IMG/VR virus record: IMGVR_UViG_3300025009_000011 | DNA: 64,000 nt | DNA from: a virus | Direction: 5' to 3' (one strand) | Shown here: in pieces, positions 7,590-51,072 of the stretch | How positions within the stretch are numbered: position 1 is the first letter of the stretch | How the letters are laid out: the number at the start of each line of letters is the position of its first letter | Notes under the pieces: generated by a model | Told to the model about the DNA's origin: nothing | Seen by the model: only the letters and a program-made list of their open reading frames with translations | The model's database searches: none | Translations under genes and position numbers: made by a program

Positions 7590-7977
7590 GTAGTTCTAAA
7601 GCATTGCCCAATATGGTAGAATAGCCTTGAGTAGTTTCTTTGTCACCCGGGGCCTCTGTTTGCAGCAGGGTCCCTTCTCTTTGCTCAATTGTCTTCTTTA
7701 TCACAAGATTGATTAAAGTTTCTTCGTCAACATCGATCGAAAAATACTCCGATAAAACACCATCCTCGACGCTAATCCCTGCCTTACCTCGGTATTCTAA
7801 TTCAGGAAAGATTGCATTTAGTAAGACATCTATCTCGTCCCAGTCAGCATTGACTTTAGATATGACCGTGACGCGTCTTAGTGCGTTGGAGTGACCGTCG
7901 ATGGACCAATGTTCGATTAGTTGGCTATCTCCTAGGTCCTGGATGGCTGAAAGTTCAGTTGGGGTTAGTTTTCGCAT
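7564..7977 (-). CDS. hypothetical protein
   Basis: ORF in operon. Confidence 0.45.
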   Translation of the reverse strand: MRKLTPTELSAIQDLGDSQLIEHWSIDGHSNALRRVTVISKVNADWDEIDVLLNAIFPELEYRGKAGISVEDGVLSEYFSIDVDEETLINLVIKKTIEQREGTLLQTEAPGDKETTQGYSTILGNALELHGPCESFV

Positions 7978-46096: not shown

Positions 46097-48319
46097 TTAA
46101 GCACCCTGTCCACCTCCTTGTTCTTGCGCCATAATCTGCTCAACAACTGCCATTAACTCATTCGGATTATCCAGCAACACCATCAACTTATCAGGTTCCA
46201 TCTGCATTAACAACCTCGCCACAGGTTCAGGAAGCTTCTCTAACGCCTTCATTATCTCAGGTGATAGTTTCGGCTTGCCCTGTGGTTGCTTACTGCTCTC
46301 AGGCGATTGTGTGACCTGTGGTTGCTTTCCTTGGTTCTGCGCTTGCATCATAGCTTGCATTTGCTGTATATCCTCGACAGTAAGCTGTATCCCTGCCTTA
46401 GCAGCCATTTGTATTTGTCCCGATGGCGGCAAATCCTTAAACGGTATCGACTCGGTGGGAGGCTTTGGTATTTCCTGCTTAGGTGGAGCCTGTTGAGATT
46501 GCTTAATAATCTCGCCCATCTCATCAATGACAGCCTGAAGATCGGGAACACCCAACTTATTAAGCAACTTCAAGAATGTTAGATTGCCGGGGTTTGGTTC
46601 AAACCGTCCTTGTCCTGCCAAGTTGCTCAAGGTGTTGAATATCTCAACTCTCGACTTCATAAAACCAGATTCAGCACTAATCTCGATATCAAAATCAGGA
46701 TAAATGTAGTTTCCTGATTGATCCTTGAGCATTGCCAATCTGTCAAACTTGCCATACTGAGCTTTTGGTTTAGTAGCGTTGGGGTCCGCGGTAGGAGGTA
46801 CAGGGGCTTGCCCCGGCATAGCTGGTGTACCTGGAGCTGATGGCATAGGTGGCGCAGGTGGTTCACCTTTAATCCTGAACGGCCTCTCTTCGTCTACAAA
46901 GGCTAATGCAAAATCTGCAATAGTTCTGTATATCCTCTTGTACGCCGATGCCTTATAAGCCGATTTAAGGGCTACCTTGAAGTTTGCTTGCTCAACATAC
47001 ACTTGTGCTTGCTTACCAGACGTTACGCCTTGATCTCGCACACCAAGAGCTGAATTTGTTGCCCCGGTCAGTAATTGCATCCATTCTTTGAGTTGATTAA
47101 TCCAGGCTACTCCGTCAACATTGCCCCTCATGTTGATCTCTTTGACGTTTTGGTTAGGATCTTGCACATAATGAACCTTTGAAATTGAAGACTCCAATGC
47201 TATTTTTAACTCTTGACTTCCAACTAAAAGCTGAATATTTCCCTTTAAATGTTCCTCTTCGTGTTGATAAACCGCCTTCTTGATTGCCTCGTTGATGTCG
47301 TGAATATCTTCCATGATGGAGATTCCCCAAAAGGACTTGTCCCTTGGGATAAATGGTTGATAAATGAGGTCCCATGACTTAGGGATGTAGTAGTCGGCTT
47401 CCTTGCCTTCATATTCATGGCTTGCTTTTATGGAAGTGCCATCTTCATCCCGACGATGATAAAACTTAGGTATGTGTTTAATCACTAAGTCACCAGACCA
47501 CCAGAACTTACATATGTCGCCATCTTCATCCTTGTATGATGTTTCAATGATGGTGTACTTCTCTAAGCCCATTTCCTGATCGCCAGATTCAGAGTCGCCT
47601 ACATTAATTCTCTGTGAGCCGGACATTTCGTCGTATTCGTGGAATAGCTGCGCTTTTTGCTCAAGCATTTCTTTTGTAATGTCCTGCCATTTACGGGTAA
47701 TGTAGTTCGCTGTGCGGTTGTTAGGATGATGGTAATGCTCCATATCATCGATTGATGTTGCGCCGTGGTTAGGGATGATGTCTTTAGGGTGCGGCATAGA
47801 GATTTCTATTTCTCCGACATAGCCAGCCTTTTTGACGCTGTTATTCCAGTGGATTTTATGAAAGGCCCCGCCGAACTTCATAACCCTGCGTTCATTGTGG
47901 AGGTTGATTTCTTCTAATGAAGGCTGGGCAGAACGAACAACATACATGACGTATTGTTTGAGCTTTTCAATCGATTCCTCATCATCCTTGGATATAGCTT
48001 GGAAATCGGGGTCCGGAACTTTTAATTCGATCAAACTTTCTACGATCATTCGAGGAAAGTTGATATTAGTCCTCATGGTCCGGTTGGAATTACTAAATTC
48101 ATCCTCGACATTCTGGAAGTCCCGGCCAGCATCATAGATTGCTTCCCACTCATCGAACCTTGCATCCCATGGCTTCTTAGCCCTCTTATCAGCCTCGAAT
48201 ACTGGTTGCCATTTTTCTATGAGTTCGCGGTCGGCTTCTTCTTGTTCAGCATTTTGAACCATTTCTTTTTTGCCCATGATTTTACCAGCCACCTTTTTTG
48301 CTTTGGTTAGTAGTGACAT
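46097..48319 (-). CDS. portal protein candidate
   Basis: 740-aa ORF directly after terL. Carries a Pro-rich insert (PPAPPMPSAPGTPAMPGQAPVPP) and a Gln/Pro-rich C-terminus. Confidence 0.65.
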   Translation of the reverse strand: MSLLTKAKKVAGKIMGKKEMVQNAEQEEADRELIEKWQPVFEADKRAKKPWDARFDEWEAIYDAGRDFQNVEDEFSNSNRTMRTNINFPRMIVESLIELKVPDPDFQAISKDDEESIEKLKQYVMYVVRSAQPSLEEINLHNERRVMKFGGAFHKIHWNNSVKKAGYVGEIEISMPHPKDIIPNHGATSIDDMEHYHHPNNRTANYITRKWQDITKEMLEQKAQLFHEYDEMSGSQRINVGDSESGDQEMGLEKYTIIETSYKDEDGDICKFWWSGDLVIKHIPKFYHRRDEDGTSIKASHEYEGKEADYYIPKSWDLIYQPFIPRDKSFWGISIMEDIHDINEAIKKAVYQHEEEHLKGNIQLLVGSQELKIALESSISKVHYVQDPNQNVKEINMRGNVDGVAWINQLKEWMQLLTGATNSALGVRDQGVTSGKQAQVYVEQANFKVALKSAYKASAYKRIYRTIADFALAFVDEERPFRIKGEPPAPPMPSAPGTPAMPGQAPVPPTADPNATKPKAQYGKFDRLAMLKDQSGNYIYPDFDIEISAESGFMKSRVEIFNTLSNLAGQGRFEPNPGNLTFLKLLNKLGVPDLQAVIDEMGEIIKQSQQAPPKQEIPKPPTESIPFKDLPPSGQIQMAAKAGIQLTVEDIQQMQAMMQAQNQGKQPQVTQSPESSKQPQGKPKLSPEIMKALEKLPEPVARLLMQMEPDKLMVLLDNPNELMAVVEQIMAQEQGGGQGA

Positions 48320-48383: not shown

Positions 48384-49425
48384 TCACTTCTTCCTCCGAT
48401 ATTTAGCCATCTCGACATACTTATCTTCAAAATCAATATTAGCCTTGACCCTCGACTTTTCTTCTTCGCTCATGTTGGCGGGGAGTTCGAATTTGGCGTT
48501 GCGTTCGATTGTGAAGCGCTGTTGGGATCTTGACACGTTTGCCACCATATCACTGAAAAGTATGTCATCATGCTTTCCACTTTCTGCGTCCGGTCTACCG
48601 TTTTTATCCATAACGAAAGTGAGACATTCCTGGAGCATACCGATGTGTGTGAAGAGGTCGATGTTGTCACGGATTAACGCGATTTCGAGCGAGATCATAT
48701 AGGGCCGCGTATTAGAGTCAGTTCTGAATCCATTTTTGTATTGCTTTTTATGACCAACTTCGTCGATAACTTCACGTCTATATTGCTTAGGGTAATTGAG
48801 GCGCTCTAATTCCTTCACGCTGTAGATATTAAAATTTATTTCTATGGAAATAAGAGCGTTGTTATAGTACCTGCCTAGGCAATACATTTGGTGCGTGTAG
48901 GTATCAGGGTCAACCTTTCCGTATAGAGTTGCTACACGCTTTCCCGTATTGTTGTTAATCATTGTTCCTGTAAATCTATCAGCATCGCCAGAACCAGCTG
49001 TATCCCCTCCCAAGACGAAAGGATGCCCAAGCTTAGGTTCATCGTAAATATAGATGTAGTCGCCGACTCCCTGAACGAACTTAATTGAGCTATCTATTAT
49101 CTTATCTTTTGTTTCGGGGTCATTCCACTCAAAGAGAAAACACCCCCGTTTTGGTGGGGATGTTTTGTATTGTTTTTTAAGGCGTTCTATTTGCATGAAA
49201 ATTTGGTTGGAGTTAAAGACGGGCCTACCAGTAGAAAGGAACGCTTCACTGGCGAAGCTAGGGATTCTCCTGGTGCATGAGATCAACGTCCCCACCACAG
49301 TCGTTCTTCAACTTCCACCTGTACCATTTGATCTGATTAAAATTAACTCCATACAGGTTTATTAAGTTCTTTTCATAGTCATTAAGATTAAGAACTTGTA
49401 ACGCTTCTGGTAGATTCATACTCAT
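48384..49425 (-). CDS. terL: terminase large subunit, C-terminal nuclease half (frame change needed at 49258-49263)
   Basis: Frame A, 49425-49258: ..NQIKWYRWKLKNDCGGDVDLMHQENP-stop. Frame B, 49259-48384: SFASEAFLSTGRPVF..GGDTAGSGDADRF..GKHDD. The conserved QE.P....EAF motif spans the frame break. Confidence 0.7.
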
Positions 49426-50170
49426 CACCTGCTTTTATAAATTCTAGATATTGGCGAACCGTGTTGTCTTTTCTCTTATATATTGCGTGAAATTCTTTAT
49501 GGCACTTCCTGCAAAGAACTACTCCGTTTATAGGTATGAATCTAAGTGACGGGTAACTAGAGTAGTTCTTTAAATGATGCACATTAAGGTATCCGCTACG
49601 CGTGCCACATTTGTTGCAGGTATAGTTATCCCTCATGAACACTGCCTTTGTAAATATCTTGTATTCATTACAAGTTCTCTCTGTTACAAACTTTGGTTCA
49701 GTTCTTCCAAGACCCAACAGTCTTCCCTTGGAAATGTTTAATTTCCATTCTACGGAAAGTTTCTTACCTCTTCTGCCGTCTACATATGTTTTTAACGACT
49801 TAGACAACGTCTTGGATTGCTCTTTACTAAAATGATGCCCATAGAATGGATTAAGTTCTCCTTTATTAATTCTGCTTTTTGATTTAGCGTAGCATTCTGG
49901 TCCACATACAGGGTCGGTCCTTATTGCCCTTGACCTAATCCTCTGTATATCATTTCCACATTCACAGCACTGAATTGTCACAAGCGCGCTGTACCTGCTC
50001 AATGCTTTCTTTGCGCTATTGGTATCTATCCCAAATCCTCTAAGCCTGAGGTATATTGTCCCCTTAGACACTGACAATATAATGCCTATCTCGGCTATGG
50101 TTTTATTTTCATCAATATATAATCTCCTTAGCTCAGATTCCTCTATCACTATTCTAGGTGGCATACCCAT
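49388..50170 (-). CDS. HNH homing-type endonuclease inside terL
   Basis: LNVHHLKNYSSYPSLRFIPINGVVLCRKCHKEFH plus an N-terminal HTH. ATGA coupling to the terL-N stop. Confidence 0.8.
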   Translation of the reverse strand: MGMPPRIVIEESELRRLYIDENKTIAEIGIILSVSKGTIYLRLRGFGIDTNSAKKALSRYSALVTIQCCECGNDIQRIRSRAIRTDPVCGPECYAKSKSRINKGELNPFYGHHFSKEQSKTLSKSLKTYVDGRRGKKLSVEWKLNISKGRLLGLGRTEPKFVTERTCNEYKIFTKAVFMRDNYTCNKCGTRSGYLNVHHLKNYSSYPSLRFIPINGVVLCRKCHKEFHAIYKRKDNTVRQYLEFIKAGDEYESTRSVTSS

Positions 50171-51072
50171 CAGTCACCACCTTTGTTTTCCGTGAATACT
50201 CTCCATGCTTCTTCTTCTGTTTCAGTCATCGCCATGGCGTAGTCTTTGTAATCAAACCATGAGAAAAACATAGGTATAAATGCGTTTTCTCCAGCTACCG
50301 CCTTGTCCCACAGGTCTTTGAATGAATTCATTCCCGAAGCTGTGCTTTCTATAATTACGATAGTGCCAACGATACTCGGAACAGAGTTTAGTATTCCATT
50401 AAGGGTTTTAAGTGGATCTCCTGAGTAAAACGCGAACTCCGAAAGATGGACGTAGTGGTATGTATCCGACCTGCCAATCCCATCGCTACCAGCCGTCTGT
50501 ACCTTTATCTTGGAATTTAAACCCTCCTGTTTTCCTTTGTAATATGGTGGCTTGTTGAATATTAACTCTCTTGCGTTTGAGGCTTGTTGTAGCGGTTTAA
50601 TGTGGTCAGGCAAACACGAATTAGAGTATTTCGCTTTATCGAAAATCGCATTGGTGCTATCGTCTCGATGAGCTACTACAAGTGCATTGCGGTTTTTGTT
50701 TTTAATTGTTCGGCAAAGAAACTTCGCTTGGGAATATGTGGAAATTCCCTCCTGTCTCGCTTTTAATACAATTATCCTAGCAGGGATGCCTTGCGATTCT
50801 AATTCCTTTATTTTATCCTCTATTTGCACTTGGATACTGTTTAGAACGAACGGAACCTGGGCACCATTCTTGTTTACAATCTTAACATAGTATTTTAGCC
50901 AGTCGGAATCGTTTCTTTTGGCTAACTCTTGCTGCATTGCCGCCAACGAGGGCAGGTCGCTTGCTTTTATCTTTGGTTTTTCAGTAGGGTCATTATTAAT
51001 TTGGATTTTTTCCTCTACGATTGACTTCTTATTTGGCACGGCTTTTGTGGTACTCGGTTTTTTAGCTTCCAT
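50170..51072 (-). CDS. terL: terminase large subunit, N-terminal ATPase half
   Basis: Walker A-like LKARQEGIST, Walker B YVHLSEFAF, and coupling motif IIESTASG. Confidence 0.8.
   Translation of the reverse strand: MEAKKPSTTKAVPNKKSIVEEKIQINNDPTEKPKIKASDLPSLAAMQQELAKRNDSDWLKYYVKIVNKNGAQVPFVLNSIQVQIEDKIKELESQGIPARIIVLKARQEGISTYSQAKFLCRTIKNKNRNALVVAHRDDSTNAIFDKAKYSNSCLPDHIKPLQQASNARELIFNKPPYYKGKQEGLNSKIKVQTAGSDGIGRSDTYHYVHLSEFAFYSGDPLKTLNGILNSVPSIVGTIVIIESTASGMNSFKDLWDKAVAGENAFIPMFFSWFDYKDYAMAMTETEEEAWRVFTENKGGD

What the first reader, a model, noticed from the sequence alone, without database searches (positions are those of the whole stretch)
48384..51072. Large terminase split into ATPase and nuclease ORFs by an HNH gene, with a duplicated, diverged junction segment
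**Layout.**
- terL-N (50170-51072; Walker A, Walker B and coupling motifs) ends ..FSWFDYKDYAMAMTETEEEAWRVFTENKGGD-stop.
- Its stop overlaps the ATG of a 260-aa HNH gene (49388-50170).
- A new frame starts inside the HNH 3' end (SD AGGTGA; ATG 49425 or 49419): MSMNLPEALQVLNLNDYEKNLINLYGVNFNQIKWYRWKLKNDCGGDVDLMHQENP.. It continues into the nuclease domain.

**Duplicated junction.** The segments DY..W.R....GGD before and after the HNH gene look like homologous but diverged copies of the same terminase region. This suggests the homing cassette arrived with donor flank sequence and left a two-piece terminase.

**Not an intron.** The insert is almost exactly the HNH ORF, about 790 bp. That leaves no room for a group I ribozyme core.
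Basis: partly seen in the sequence, partly recalled or inferred. Interest (0 to 1): 0.62.

Follow-up and report, generated by a model that had tools for sequence, protein, structure and literature searches.

The report
Homing-endonuclease-split phage terminase needing a frameshift
A selfish HNH endonuclease gene has cut this groundwater phage's DNA-packaging motor gene into two separately translated pieces, and the second piece can be read in full only if the ribosome slips forward one base, a layout that resembles the mobA/gene 60 cassette of phage T4.

Summary
The split is real. terL-N (50170-51072), a 260-aa HNH gene (49388-50170) and a restarted terL piece (ATG 49419, Shine-Dalgarno (SD) site AGGTGA) lie head to tail on the minus strand.

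- **Relatives.** More than 17 related phages, and over 1000 database homologues, carry one uninterrupted TerL. Seven lineages carry an HNH gene at exactly this codon.
- **Not spliced.** There is no intron RNA. There is no room for an intein: only 11 and 10 extra residues flank the insert.
- **Duplication not supported.** The N-tail GGD is simply the SD of the HNH gene. The extra residues are conserved tails that travel with the cassette.
- **Position of the cut.** It falls inside the ATPase domain, between the Rossmann core and the lid, not between ATPase and nuclease.
- **Frame break.** The restarted frame does not run into the nuclease. It stops after 53 codons at CCC_TAG_C (49257-49263), and the nuclease lies in the +1 frame. 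The break is genuine: 22 identical contigs carry it. It recurs in three other diverged HNH-bearing lineages, two of which have no possible restart codon. AGGAG lies 3 nt upstream of CCC in three of the four lineages, as in prfB. A programmed +1 frameshift is the best reading.
- **Mobility.** Mosaic sequence patterns show that the cassette moves between terL backbones.

The scan has met HNH-split terminases before, mostly with split inteins; this one has none.

The parts
50170..51072 (-). terL-N: 300 aa, the Rossmann-fold ATPase core of the large terminase. It carries a Walker A-like KARQEGIST, Walker B VHLSE and coupling motif EST, plus a short cassette-borne C-terminal tail.
   Evidence: ORF. 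PHROG phrog_2 terminase large subunit, E 3.8e-14. Aligns to positions 14-292 of a profile of intact TerLs and to T4 gp17 residues 111-320 of chain 3EZK. pN/pS 0.043 against strain L036.
50173..50205 (-). C-terminal extension (CTE) of terL-N: WRVFTENKGGD. It lies beyond the last residue that aligns to intact TerLs. The motif EAW.V(F/Y), which spans the border, is conserved in all six HNH-bearing lineages with a known N piece and is absent from 120 intact homologues. AAAGGTGGTGA (50174-50184) is the SD of the HNH gene.
   Evidence: SD pairing energy -13.1 kcal/mol. Constraint is relaxed on residues 281-300 (pN/pS 0.40).
49388..50170 (-). Free-standing HNH endonuclease gene, 260 aa: N-terminal helix-turn-helix, CxxC zinc ribbon, NUMOD3-like motif and C-terminal HNH. 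Its start overlaps the terL-N stop (TGATG).
   Evidence: PHROG HNH families, best E 3.6e-18. The window protein is below the Pfam cut-off for HNH (16.8 bits), but relatives P0010 and P0009 reach the HNH cut-off and P0010 also the NUMOD3 cut-off. pN/pS 0.11 against L036. Absent from more than 17 related terL loci.
49425..49430 (-). SD site AGGTGA for the restarted terL-C piece, inside the HNH coding sequence. (A)GGTGA plus 5-6 nt plus ATG or GTG recurs in the HNH-bearing lineages examined.
49261..49419 (-). terL-C codons 1-53 in the zero frame. A 10-residue N-terminal extension (NTE) MNLPEALQVL is encoded in overlap with the HNH tail. It is followed by lid-subdomain helices ending in the conserved QENP.
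   Evidence: The exact 53-aa product is recorded on 22 contigs. pN/pS 0.027. The two window-versus-L036 differences in the overlap with HNH are synonymous for terL-C and non-synonymous for HNH (read off the alignment).
49257..49271 (-). Putative +1 frameshift site AGGAG-AAU-CCC-UAG-C. SD-like AGGAG is at 49267-49271, followed by a 3-nt spacer. The slippery Pro codon CCC is at 49261-49263 and the zero-frame stop UAG at 49258-49260. The next +1 codon, AGC, is at 49257-49259.
   Evidence: In-frame relatives read AAT CCN AGC/TCN, one base fewer. The same CCC_TAG_C occurs in L036, L045 and L046. L045 and L046 have no start codon in the +1 frame.
48384..49259 (-). terL-C codons 54-344 in the +1 frame: the rest of the lid (SFASEAFLSTGRPVF..) and the RNase H-like nuclease domain, with catalytic residues in GGDT, SIEIN and KHDD. 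The stop is TGA 48384-48386.
   Evidence: PHROG terminase hit. pN/pS 0.040, from 105.5 synonymous against 16.5 non-synonymous differences; the two wrong frames give values above 2.

Best explanation
**Core claim.** A free-standing HNH homing-type endonuclease gene, with its own ribosome-binding site, sits inside terL and has turned it into a gene in pieces.

**The two products.**
- Ribosomes make terL-N (300 aa) and stop. terL-N is the ATPase Rossmann core plus an 11-residue cassette-borne tail.
- The HNH gene is translated by coupling at TGATG.
- terL-C is started afresh at ATG 49419 behind AGGTGA. It has a 10-residue cassette-borne head, then the ATPase lid, then the nuclease.
- The motor is rebuilt from the two polypeptides without covalent joining. 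No RNA or protein splicing takes place.

**The frameshift.** In this lineage terL-C also holds one extra base in the conserved QENP-S motif. After codon 53 the peptidyl-tRNA(Pro) on CCC, facing the stop UAG, slips to CCU, and decoding goes on at AGC. This +1 shift gives a seamless 344-aa protein. Ribosomes that do not shift release a 53-aa peptide.

**Mobility.** The HNH gene with its immediate flanks moves between terL alleles of co-occurring phages by recombination (homing-like gene conversion).

**Shown:** the anatomy, the uninterrupted relatives, the absence of an intron or intein, purifying selection on all pieces, the mosaicism, and the reality and recurrence of the frame break.

**Inferred:** assembly of the two proteins, the frameshift itself, and endonuclease activity and homing.
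For: **Anatomy.**

**Uninterrupted relatives.** Seventeen loci encode one 570-677-aa TerL ORF. 1046 database homologues have E <= 1e-20, and almost all of the 120 listed are 550-645 aa long.

**HNH gene at the same codon.** It occurs in L036, L037-39, L040-42, L043/L026, L045 and L046. The HNH proteins are 91%, 76%, 78%, 40% and 39% identical to the window's for L036, L037, L040, L043 and L046.

**No splicing signals.**
- No Rfam family reaches E <= 1 in the insert of the window or of four related loci.
- No Intein/Hint Pfam hit was found, and only 11 + 10 residues are unaccounted for.

**Translation signals.** SD pairing energies are -11.3 (terL-N), -13.1 (HNH) and -12.7 (terL-C) kcal/mol, against a median of -11.05 for the phage's genes.

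**Purifying selection.** pN/pS is 0.043 (N), 0.11 (HNH), 0.027 (terL-C codons 1-53) and 0.040 (+1 frame).

**Mobility.**
- The region just 3' of the HNH gene is 85-97% identical among the five HNH-bearing alleles and at most 67% identical to intact ones. It is 62-74% between those five and L045 or L046.
- The C core of L040 is 95-100% identical in DNA to the HNH-free L019 from about 20 codons after QENP.
- The C-core tree rejects a single clade of HNH-bearing alleles (p-AU 6e-6).
- Synonymous divergence rises with distance from the cassette, from 0.20 to 0.92.

**Frame break.**
- The region is 100% identical in the five window-type loci fetched, which come from separate runs and assemblers. 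The exact 53-aa product is recorded on 22 contigs.
- The same CCC_TAG_C is present in L036, L045 and L046, whose C parts are 95%, 70% and 54% identical to the window's. Each keeps an unbroken +1 ORF.
- In L045 and L046 the +1 frame is open for only 5 codons upstream, with no ATG, GTG or TTG. The first in-frame start lies more than 110 codons downstream, past the first catalytic Asp.
- Candidate restarts in the window have background-level SD energies of -1.8 to -6.4.
- The Glu codon is GAG in all 4 broken lineages, giving AGGAG 3 nt before CCC in three of them. L046 has the weaker AAGAG. GAG occurs in 4 of the 17 in-frame sequences listed.
- CCC_UGA is a +1 site in use in Listeria phages (PMC5009743).
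Against: - Neither the frameshift nor the absence of splicing has been observed directly.
- The purifying selection seen in the C core between the window and L036 may partly predate the break, if the break spread by recombination. The tract around it is younger (pS 0.2-0.35) than the flanks (0.76-1.2).
- No significant RNA structure follows the site (z about -1.5).
- In L046 the upstream SD-like element is weak (AAGAG, -4.0 kcal/mol).
- The host is unknown, so its tRNA(Pro) and RF1 properties are unknown.
- Assembly of an ATPase core with a lid supplied in trans has not been demonstrated for any terminase that I know of.
Confidence: 0.75

Rival explanations
1. Three-piece terminase. The 53-aa peptide, the nuclease part and terL-N are all made separately. 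The nuclease part would be started at TTG 49286 or at GTG 49295/49298, or by re-initiation after the UAG.
For: The +1 frame of the window is open for 16 codons upstream of AGC and holds TTG and GTG codons. One gene caller used the TTG. This terL already tolerates one split.
Against: Those starts have SD energies of -6.4, -1.8 and -4.8 kcal/mol, inside the background for internal NTG codons. L045 and L046 have no start codon at all in the +1 frame until more than 110 codons downstream, beyond the first catalytic Asp, yet they keep the ORF intact. The break also lies in the middle of a conserved motif.
Confidence: 0.07
2. Decaying gene. The extra base is an inactivating mutation in a defective element or prophage remnant that no longer packages its own DNA.
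For: A stop lies in an essential gene. No direct evidence of virions is available. All window-type contigs are clonal.
Against: The break is shared by four lineages that have diverged to 54-95% protein identity. None has a second lesion in about 290 downstream codons. pN/pS is 0.04 in the +1 frame. The phage was assembled as a contig of up to 68 kb in several samples. The site has exactly the features that allow +1 slippage.
Confidence: 0.07
3. The insert is a group I or group II intron with an HNH ORF, or a split intein (a 'fractured gene'), so that a single TerL is restored by RNA or protein splicing.
For: Both arrangements are common in terL: spliced HNH introns (PMC7344957, PMC11878797) and fractured genes (PMC2677866). 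The scan has found many split-intein terminases.
Against: No Rfam intron model hits at E <= 1 in five loci. At most 35 nt of the insert lie outside the HNH ORF, against about 350 nt of non-coding intron sequence in phage terL and pol introns (PMC11878797). The extensions are 11 and 10 aa, against 88-105 and 33-54 aa for split-intein halves (PMC2677866). There is no Cys or Ser at the junction and no HN motif. A conserved SD and start codon precede the downstream piece.
Confidence: 0.03
4. The HNH protein is a domesticated helper of the packaging nuclease, like the HNH proteins next to the terminase genes of HK97-like phages, and is not a selfish element.
For: It is under purifying selection (pN/pS 0.11) and is translationally coupled to terL-N.
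Against: It is absent from most close relatives, which package with an intact TerL. It has the modular DNA-binding parts of homing enzymes: an HTH, a zinc ribbon and NUMOD3. The sequence around it shows the mosaic pattern of a mobile cassette.
Confidence: 0.08

Closest known systems
Phage T4 topoisomerase gene 39 / mobA / gene 60 with the 50-nt translational bypass (Atkins et al. 2016, PMC5009743; Manning and Atkins 2022, bioRxiv 10.1101/2022.08.31.505936)
   Same: An HNH-family free-standing endonuclease gene splits an essential DNA enzyme gene. Conserved tails are added to both pieces. A translational recoding site with a stop codon in the A site lies about 50 codons into the downstream piece: codon 46 in gene 60, codon 53 here. 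The cassette spreads among related phages, and some cassettes lack the recoding element.
   Different: [quoted passage not shown] The host gene is terL, not the topoisomerase. The endonuclease shows no demonstrated relation to MobA. A role for the extra base in protecting against self-cleavage is only a hypothesis here.
Genes-in-pieces NrdA of Aeromonas phage Aeh1, split by mobE (Friedrich et al. 2007, PMC1851037; cited in PMC5418858 and PMC7344957)
   Same: A free-standing HNH endonuclease lies inside an ORF. There is no splicing, and two polypeptides reassemble. Added tails are needed for function in that case.
   Different: The enzyme is different. Assembly of the pieces is untested here. 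Aeh1 NrdA has no recoding site.
Fractured genes: split intein plus free-standing endonuclease, including a phage terminase (Dassa et al. 2009, PMC2677866)
   Same: terL in two ORFs in the original order, with an endonuclease gene between them.
   Different: There are no intein halves here, so no protein trans-splicing can restore one chain.
HNH-bearing group I introns in terL (Pectobacterium phage CB7, PMC7344957; Bastillevirinae, PMC11878797)
   Same: An HNH gene interrupts terL.
   Different: Those introns splice and have about 350 nt of ribozyme sequence. This insert is coding from end to end, and the downstream piece has its own start.
+1 programmed frameshift sites of the prfB type and CCC_UGA of the Listeria phage tsh genes (PMC5009743)
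   Same: A shift-prone P-site codon that re-pairs in +1 (CCC to CCU), a zero-frame stop in the A site followed by C, and an SD-like element 3 nt upstream as in prfB (the prfB spacing is from my own knowledge).
   Different: The stop is UAG, not UGA. The gene is a terminase. The site appears to have arisen by a 1-nt insertion into a conserved motif. It does not serve to make two useful products or to act as an autoregulatory loop.

Membership tests
[quoted passage not shown] | Endonuclease ORF between two collinear pieces of one gene, while relatives have the gene uninterrupted | tested here: met
   17 loci have an intact gene, and 7 lineages carry an HNH gene at the same codon.
[quoted passage not shown] | Downstream piece has its own ribosome-binding site and start codon; no intron and no intein | tested here: met
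   SD AGGTGA plus ATG or GTG in the lineages examined. No Rfam hit. Extensions are only 11 and 10 aa.
[quoted passage not shown] | Conserved extensions (CTE and NTE) added to the two pieces | tested here: met
   EAW.V(F/Y) tail and (D/N)(L/I)x(E/D)Axx(V/I)L head in the HNH-bearing lineages; EAW is absent from 120 intact homologues.
[quoted passage not shown] | The two polypeptides assemble into an active enzyme | not testable with these tools
   Indirect only: purifying selection on both pieces.
Homing endonuclease (mobile, site-specific) | Cleaves the endonuclease-free allele and is copied into it | not testable with these tools
   Indirect: mosaic alleles, a gradient of divergence, and rejection of a single HNH-bearing clade for the C core. 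HNH-free and HNH-bearing alleles occur in the same samples.
Group I intron carrying an HNH ORF | Ribozyme core (P3-P9) flanking the ORF | tested here: not met
   No Rfam match at E <= 1 in the window or in L036, L037, L040 and L043. At most 35 nt of the insert lie outside the ORF.
Fractured gene (split intein plus endonuclease) | N- and C-intein halves at the ends of the two pieces | tested here: not met
   Profile alignment leaves 11 and 10 residues. No Hint/Intein Pfam hit. Known halves measure 88-105 and 33-54 aa.
Programmed +1 ribosomal frameshift (prfB-like) | Shift-prone codon that re-pairs in +1, followed by a zero-frame stop, with an SD-like element close upstream | tested here: met
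   AGGAG-AAU-CCC-UAG-C. CCC_TAG_C is conserved in 4 lineages, and AGGAG in three of them (L046 has AAGAG).
Programmed +1 ribosomal frameshift (prfB-like) | A trans-frame protein is actually made | not testable with these tools
   Indirect: intact, conserved +1 ORFs with no start codon in L045 and L046.
T4 mobA / gene 60 type cassette (endonuclease plus recoding element that protects against self-cleavage) | The recoding insert disrupts the endonuclease's own target site | not testable with these tools
   Only an association. The break occurs solely in HNH-bearing alleles (4 of 7 lineages). The other 3 carry the unusual SHS(K/R)EPF at the same spot.
HNH accessory protein of the packaging machine (HK97 gp74 type; from my own knowledge) | Present next to the terminase genes throughout the lineage and needed for cutting | tested here: not met
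   Absent from the terL locus of 17 related phages.

The most novel reading that the evidence does not exclude
The single extra base at CCC^AGC may be part of the selfish cassette's biology rather than an accident.

- The HNH enzyme would recognise or cut the conserved QENP-coding stretch, about 160 nt 3' of its own gene.
- Invaded alleles would escape re-cutting in one of two ways. One is substitutions: SHS(K/R)EPF in three lineages. The other is a 1-nt insertion, which the phage survives because CCC_UAG_C allows +1 slippage.

This would be a second, independent case of a homing endonuclease coupled to a translational recoding element, after mobA/gene 60 of T4. It would sit in the terminase gene, and natural alleles with and without the recoding site are available for comparison.
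Probability: 0.3. Interest if true: 0.85.

Novelty: new variant of a known kind. Interest (0 to 1): 0.72.

Why it matters
- **A natural experiment on the motor.** Terminase motors are studied as single chains. Here the ATPase core and the lid-plus-nuclease are separate proteins, and the arrangement is kept by selection in several phage lineages. This tests how the lid couples ATP hydrolysis to DNA movement.
- **A possible second recoding cassette.** T4 gene 60 has long been the only example of a homing endonuclease linked to ribosomal recoding. If the conserved CCC_UAG_C site in the endonuclease-bearing terL alleles is confirmed, it gives a second and far simpler case. It comes with sister alleles that lack the frameshift, so the question of why such recoding evolves becomes directly testable.
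- **A practical point for annotation.** Automatic annotation breaks this terL into three or four 'hypothetical' genes.

Tried and rejected
- **Read mapping.** I used independent assemblies instead.
- **Own genome.** No genome is held for the window.
- **Exact-pattern scans.**
  - Viral contigs: nothing for the window's own sequence.
  - Genome contigs: six hits, none with terL homology, so chance matches and no host clue.
- **Four-letter code.** CCCT=P also shifts at a second in-frame CCC_T (P239), so it could not yield the full product. TAGC=S would work but was not needed.
- **First AlphaFold run.** With 13 sequences it left the nuclease domain unreliable (pLDDT 64.5). A 124-sequence alignment fixed this (pLDDT 91.9).
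- **HNH protein against PDB sequences.** Nothing significant.
- **RNA structure after the shift site.** A hairpin of -13.5 kcal/mol with z -1.47, which is not significant.
- **CCCTAG in the window.** It is not enriched: 15 occurrences against 22 expected.
- **Duplication tests.** The N tail against the head of terL-C, in the window, L026 and L036, gave p of 0.09 to 0.40. I rejected this as evidence of duplication. Both tails can nevertheless be laid on the same lid helix of intact TerLs (E-A-x-x-V/I-hydrophobic), so a short, old duplication is not excluded.
- **Literature.** I found no description of an unspliced, intein-free, HNH-split terL in the held library. The library is incomplete.
Full report
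**What is in the sequence.** On the minus strand the window reads as follows.
- terL-N runs from 51072 to 50170 (300 aa).
- An HNH ORF runs from 50170 to 49388 (260 aa). Its ATG overlaps the terL-N stop as TGATG.
- A short ORF starts inside the HNH 3' end. ATG 49419 lies behind AGGTGA at 49425-49430. This ORF ends after 53 codons at TAG 49258-49260 (..DLMHQENP-stop).
- In the +1 frame a 291-codon stretch begins ..SFASEAFLSTGRPVF.. and runs to the stop at 48384-48386.

PHROG profiles call the first and last pieces terminase large subunit and the middle one an HNH endonuclease. Pfam hits are weak. A profile of related intact TerLs matches T4 gp17. This places the Walker A-like segment, Walker B and the coupling motif in terL-N, and the three acidic nuclease residues in the last piece.

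**Relatives.** IMG/VR holds about 30 related loci.
- In 17 of them terL is one uninterrupted ORF of 570-677 aa.
- A search of the large protein collection with a conceptual fusion found 1046 homologues at E <= 1e-20. Almost all of the 120 listed were 550-645 aa long, and the closest were 74-76% identical.
- One IMG/VR locus (L026) had an HNH gene at the same place.
- A search with the HNH protein, followed by context look-ups, added L036, L037-39, L040-42 and L043.
- A pattern scan added L045 and L046.

All seven lineages are split at the same alignment column. The terL-N stop touches or overlaps the HNH start, and an (A)GGTGA SD plus ATG or GTG precedes the downstream piece.

**Not an intron, not an intein, not a packaging helper.**
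- No Rfam family reaches E <= 1 in the insert of the window or of four related loci.
- The insert is coding from end to end and is under purifying selection (pN/pS 0.11). Phage terL and pol introns carry about 350 nt outside their ORFs (PMC11878797).
- A profile of intact TerLs aligns terL-N to positions 14-292 and the downstream piece from position 296. Only three positions are missing, and 11 + 10 residues are extra. Split-intein halves in 'fractured genes' measure 88-105 and 33-54 residues (PMC2677866).
- The HNH gene is absent from most relatives, so it is not a fixed part of the packaging machine.

**The 'duplicated junction'.**
- The two DY stretches map to different profile positions.
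- The GGD of the N tail is AAAGGTGGTGA, the SD of the HNH gene (-13.1 kcal/mol). It is not conserved in L037, L040, L043 or L046.
- What is conserved is a tail ..E-A-W-x-V/I-F/Y on terL-N and a head (D/N)-(L/I)-x-(E/D)-A-x-x-(V/I)-L on terL-C, in all HNH-bearing lineages. EAW occurs at that place in none of 120 intact homologues.
- These tails match the conserved C- and N-terminal extensions that MobA and MobE cassettes add to the genes they split (bioRxiv 10.1101/2022.08.31.505936).
- Both tails can be laid on the same first lid helix of intact TerLs. A short, old duplication therefore remains possible but cannot be demonstrated.
- The head is encoded in overlap with the HNH tail. The two differences between the window and L036 in that overlap are silent for terL-C and amino-acid-changing for HNH (alignment).

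**Where the protein is cut.** An AlphaFold model of the intact relative L010, built with 124 homologues, has pLDDT 91.9. It matches T4 gp17 (E about 1e-24) and other terminases.
- The cut falls after the last strand of the Rossmann core (residues 233-236), at the first helix (251-259) of a helical region (251-335).
- That helical region precedes the nuclease domain, which starts at about residue 339.
- The isolated ATPase domains of T4 and P74-26 align over about 300 columns, so this helical region is the ATPase lid.
- terL-C is therefore lid plus nuclease. The split lies within the ATPase domain, not at the domain border.

**Selection and mobility.** Against the diverged strain L036 (about 87% DNA identity), pN/pS values are as follows.

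| Segment | pN/pS |
|---|---|
| terL-N | 0.043 |
| HNH | 0.11 |
| terL-C codons 1-53 | 0.027 |
| +1 frame | 0.040 |
| the two wrong frames | above 2 |

The evidence for movement of the cassette:
- The 40-50 codons just 3' of the HNH gene are 85-97% identical among the five HNH-bearing alleles, and at most 67% identical to intact alleles. They are 62-74% identical between those five and L045 or L046.
- The outer parts follow different intact backbones. The window's N core is closest to HNH-free L010/L019 (81%).
- The C core of L040 is 95-100% identical in DNA to HNH-free L019 from about 20 codons after QENP.
- The C-core tree rejects a single clade of HNH-bearing alleles (p-AU 6e-6). The N core does not reject it (p 0.12).
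- Synonymous divergence between the window and L036 climbs from 0.20 next to the cassette to 0.92 further away.
- HNH-free and HNH-bearing alleles occur in the same samples.

This is the pattern expected of a cassette that is copied into new alleles together with its flanks.

**The frame break.** In-frame relatives read AAT CCN AGC/TCN. The window reads AAT CCC T AGC.
- It is not an error. The exact 53-aa product is recorded on 22 contigs from JGI, ENA and Logan assemblies of different runs. The five fetched are 100% identical to the window.
- L036 has the break too.
- A degenerate pattern scan found the same CCC_TAG_C at the same codon in two much more distant HNH-bearing loci. These are L045 (C part 70% identical) and L046 (54% identical). 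The HNH of L046 is of the other subtype. Both keep an unbroken nuclease ORF in the +1 frame.
- In those two loci the +1 frame is open for only five codons upstream and contains no ATG, GTG or TTG. The first in-frame start lies more than 110 codons downstream, past the first catalytic Asp. Separate initiation therefore cannot make the nuclease.
- In the window the candidate restarts have background-level ribosome-binding sites.
- The site has the anatomy of a +1 shift site. CCC re-pairs as CCU, a stop followed by C is in the A site, and AGGAG lies 3 nt upstream as in prfB.
- The Glu codon is GAG in all four broken lineages, against 4 of the 17 in-frame sequences listed.
- CCC_UGA is a +1 site in use in Listeria phage tail genes, and it shifts at 1-15% even without selection in enterobacteria (PMC5009743).
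- No significant downstream RNA structure was found.

**A link between endonuclease and frameshift.**
- The break occurs only in HNH-bearing alleles, in 4 of 7 lineages and in both HNH subtypes.
- The three HNH-bearing lineages without it all read QENP-SHS(K/R)EPF. Among 120 intact homologues, EAF occurs 104 times at this spot and EPF once.
- That single intact protein, P0019, is a recombinant. It is L010-like up to QENP and L037-like after it.
- In the broken lineages the sequence after the break looks like ordinary HNH-free backbones.
- The QENP-coding stretch thus behaves as a recombination boundary. It is altered in every invaded allele, either by substitutions or by one inserted base.
- By analogy with T4, where the 50-nt bypass insert in gene 60 protects against nicking by MobA, the extra base may protect the allele from its own endonuclease. 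This is a hypothesis only.

**Limits.**
- No transcript, protein or cleavage data were available.
- The host is unknown. The nearest named homologue comes from a Thermincolia MAG at 47% identity.
- Part of the selection signal in the C core may predate the break, if the break spreads by recombination.
- Assembly of the two terminase pieces is inferred from conservation only.

Noticed in passing
window 49720-49810 (HNH residues about 111-150): A 90-120-nt patch inside the HNH gene is only 60-64% identical between the window and strain L036, while the flanks are about 90% identical. It may be a swapped linker between the NUMOD3-like and HNH parts.
   Followed up: partly
L026 end (7645-7692) and L012 start (1-48): Two contigs from the same sample overlap by exactly 48 nt, starting at the CCC of QENP. 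The assembly graph therefore branches on both sides of this conserved stretch. This is consistent with recombinant alleles that meet at this point.
   Followed up: partly
P0019 (intact 615-aa TerL, Logan assembly): This HNH-free terL is L010-like up to QENP and carries the otherwise cassette-linked SHSKEPF..FFDNEKVS sequence after it. It may be a resistant or 'hit-and-run' allele.
   Followed up: no
L001, L007, L025, L028 (intact TerLs), lid region just after the split point: Some intact relatives carry a 13-residue Cys-rich insertion (e.g. HDNNCDCLPCY, HKKDCKCSFCY) in the same variable loop where the HNH cassette sits in others.
   Followed up: no
window 50730-50760 (terL-N): The Walker A segment of this whole TerL family reads KARQEG(I/V)ST, without the usual GK(S/T) lysine. 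It aligns with SRQLGKT of T4 gp17.
   Followed up: no
window 47322-47376 (portal gene) against L031: The ENA scaffold L031 matches the window perfectly but has a gap of about 100 nt, with a 55-nt overlap of the two matched blocks, inside the portal gene. This is probably a scaffolding artefact in a Pro/Gln-rich repeat region.
   Followed up: no
window 48700-48705 region (terL-C codon 239): A second in-frame CCC followed by T (CCC TAT) lies in the nuclease part. It has no stop after it, so it should not shift. It prevented use of the four-letter code CCCT=P.
   Followed up: yes
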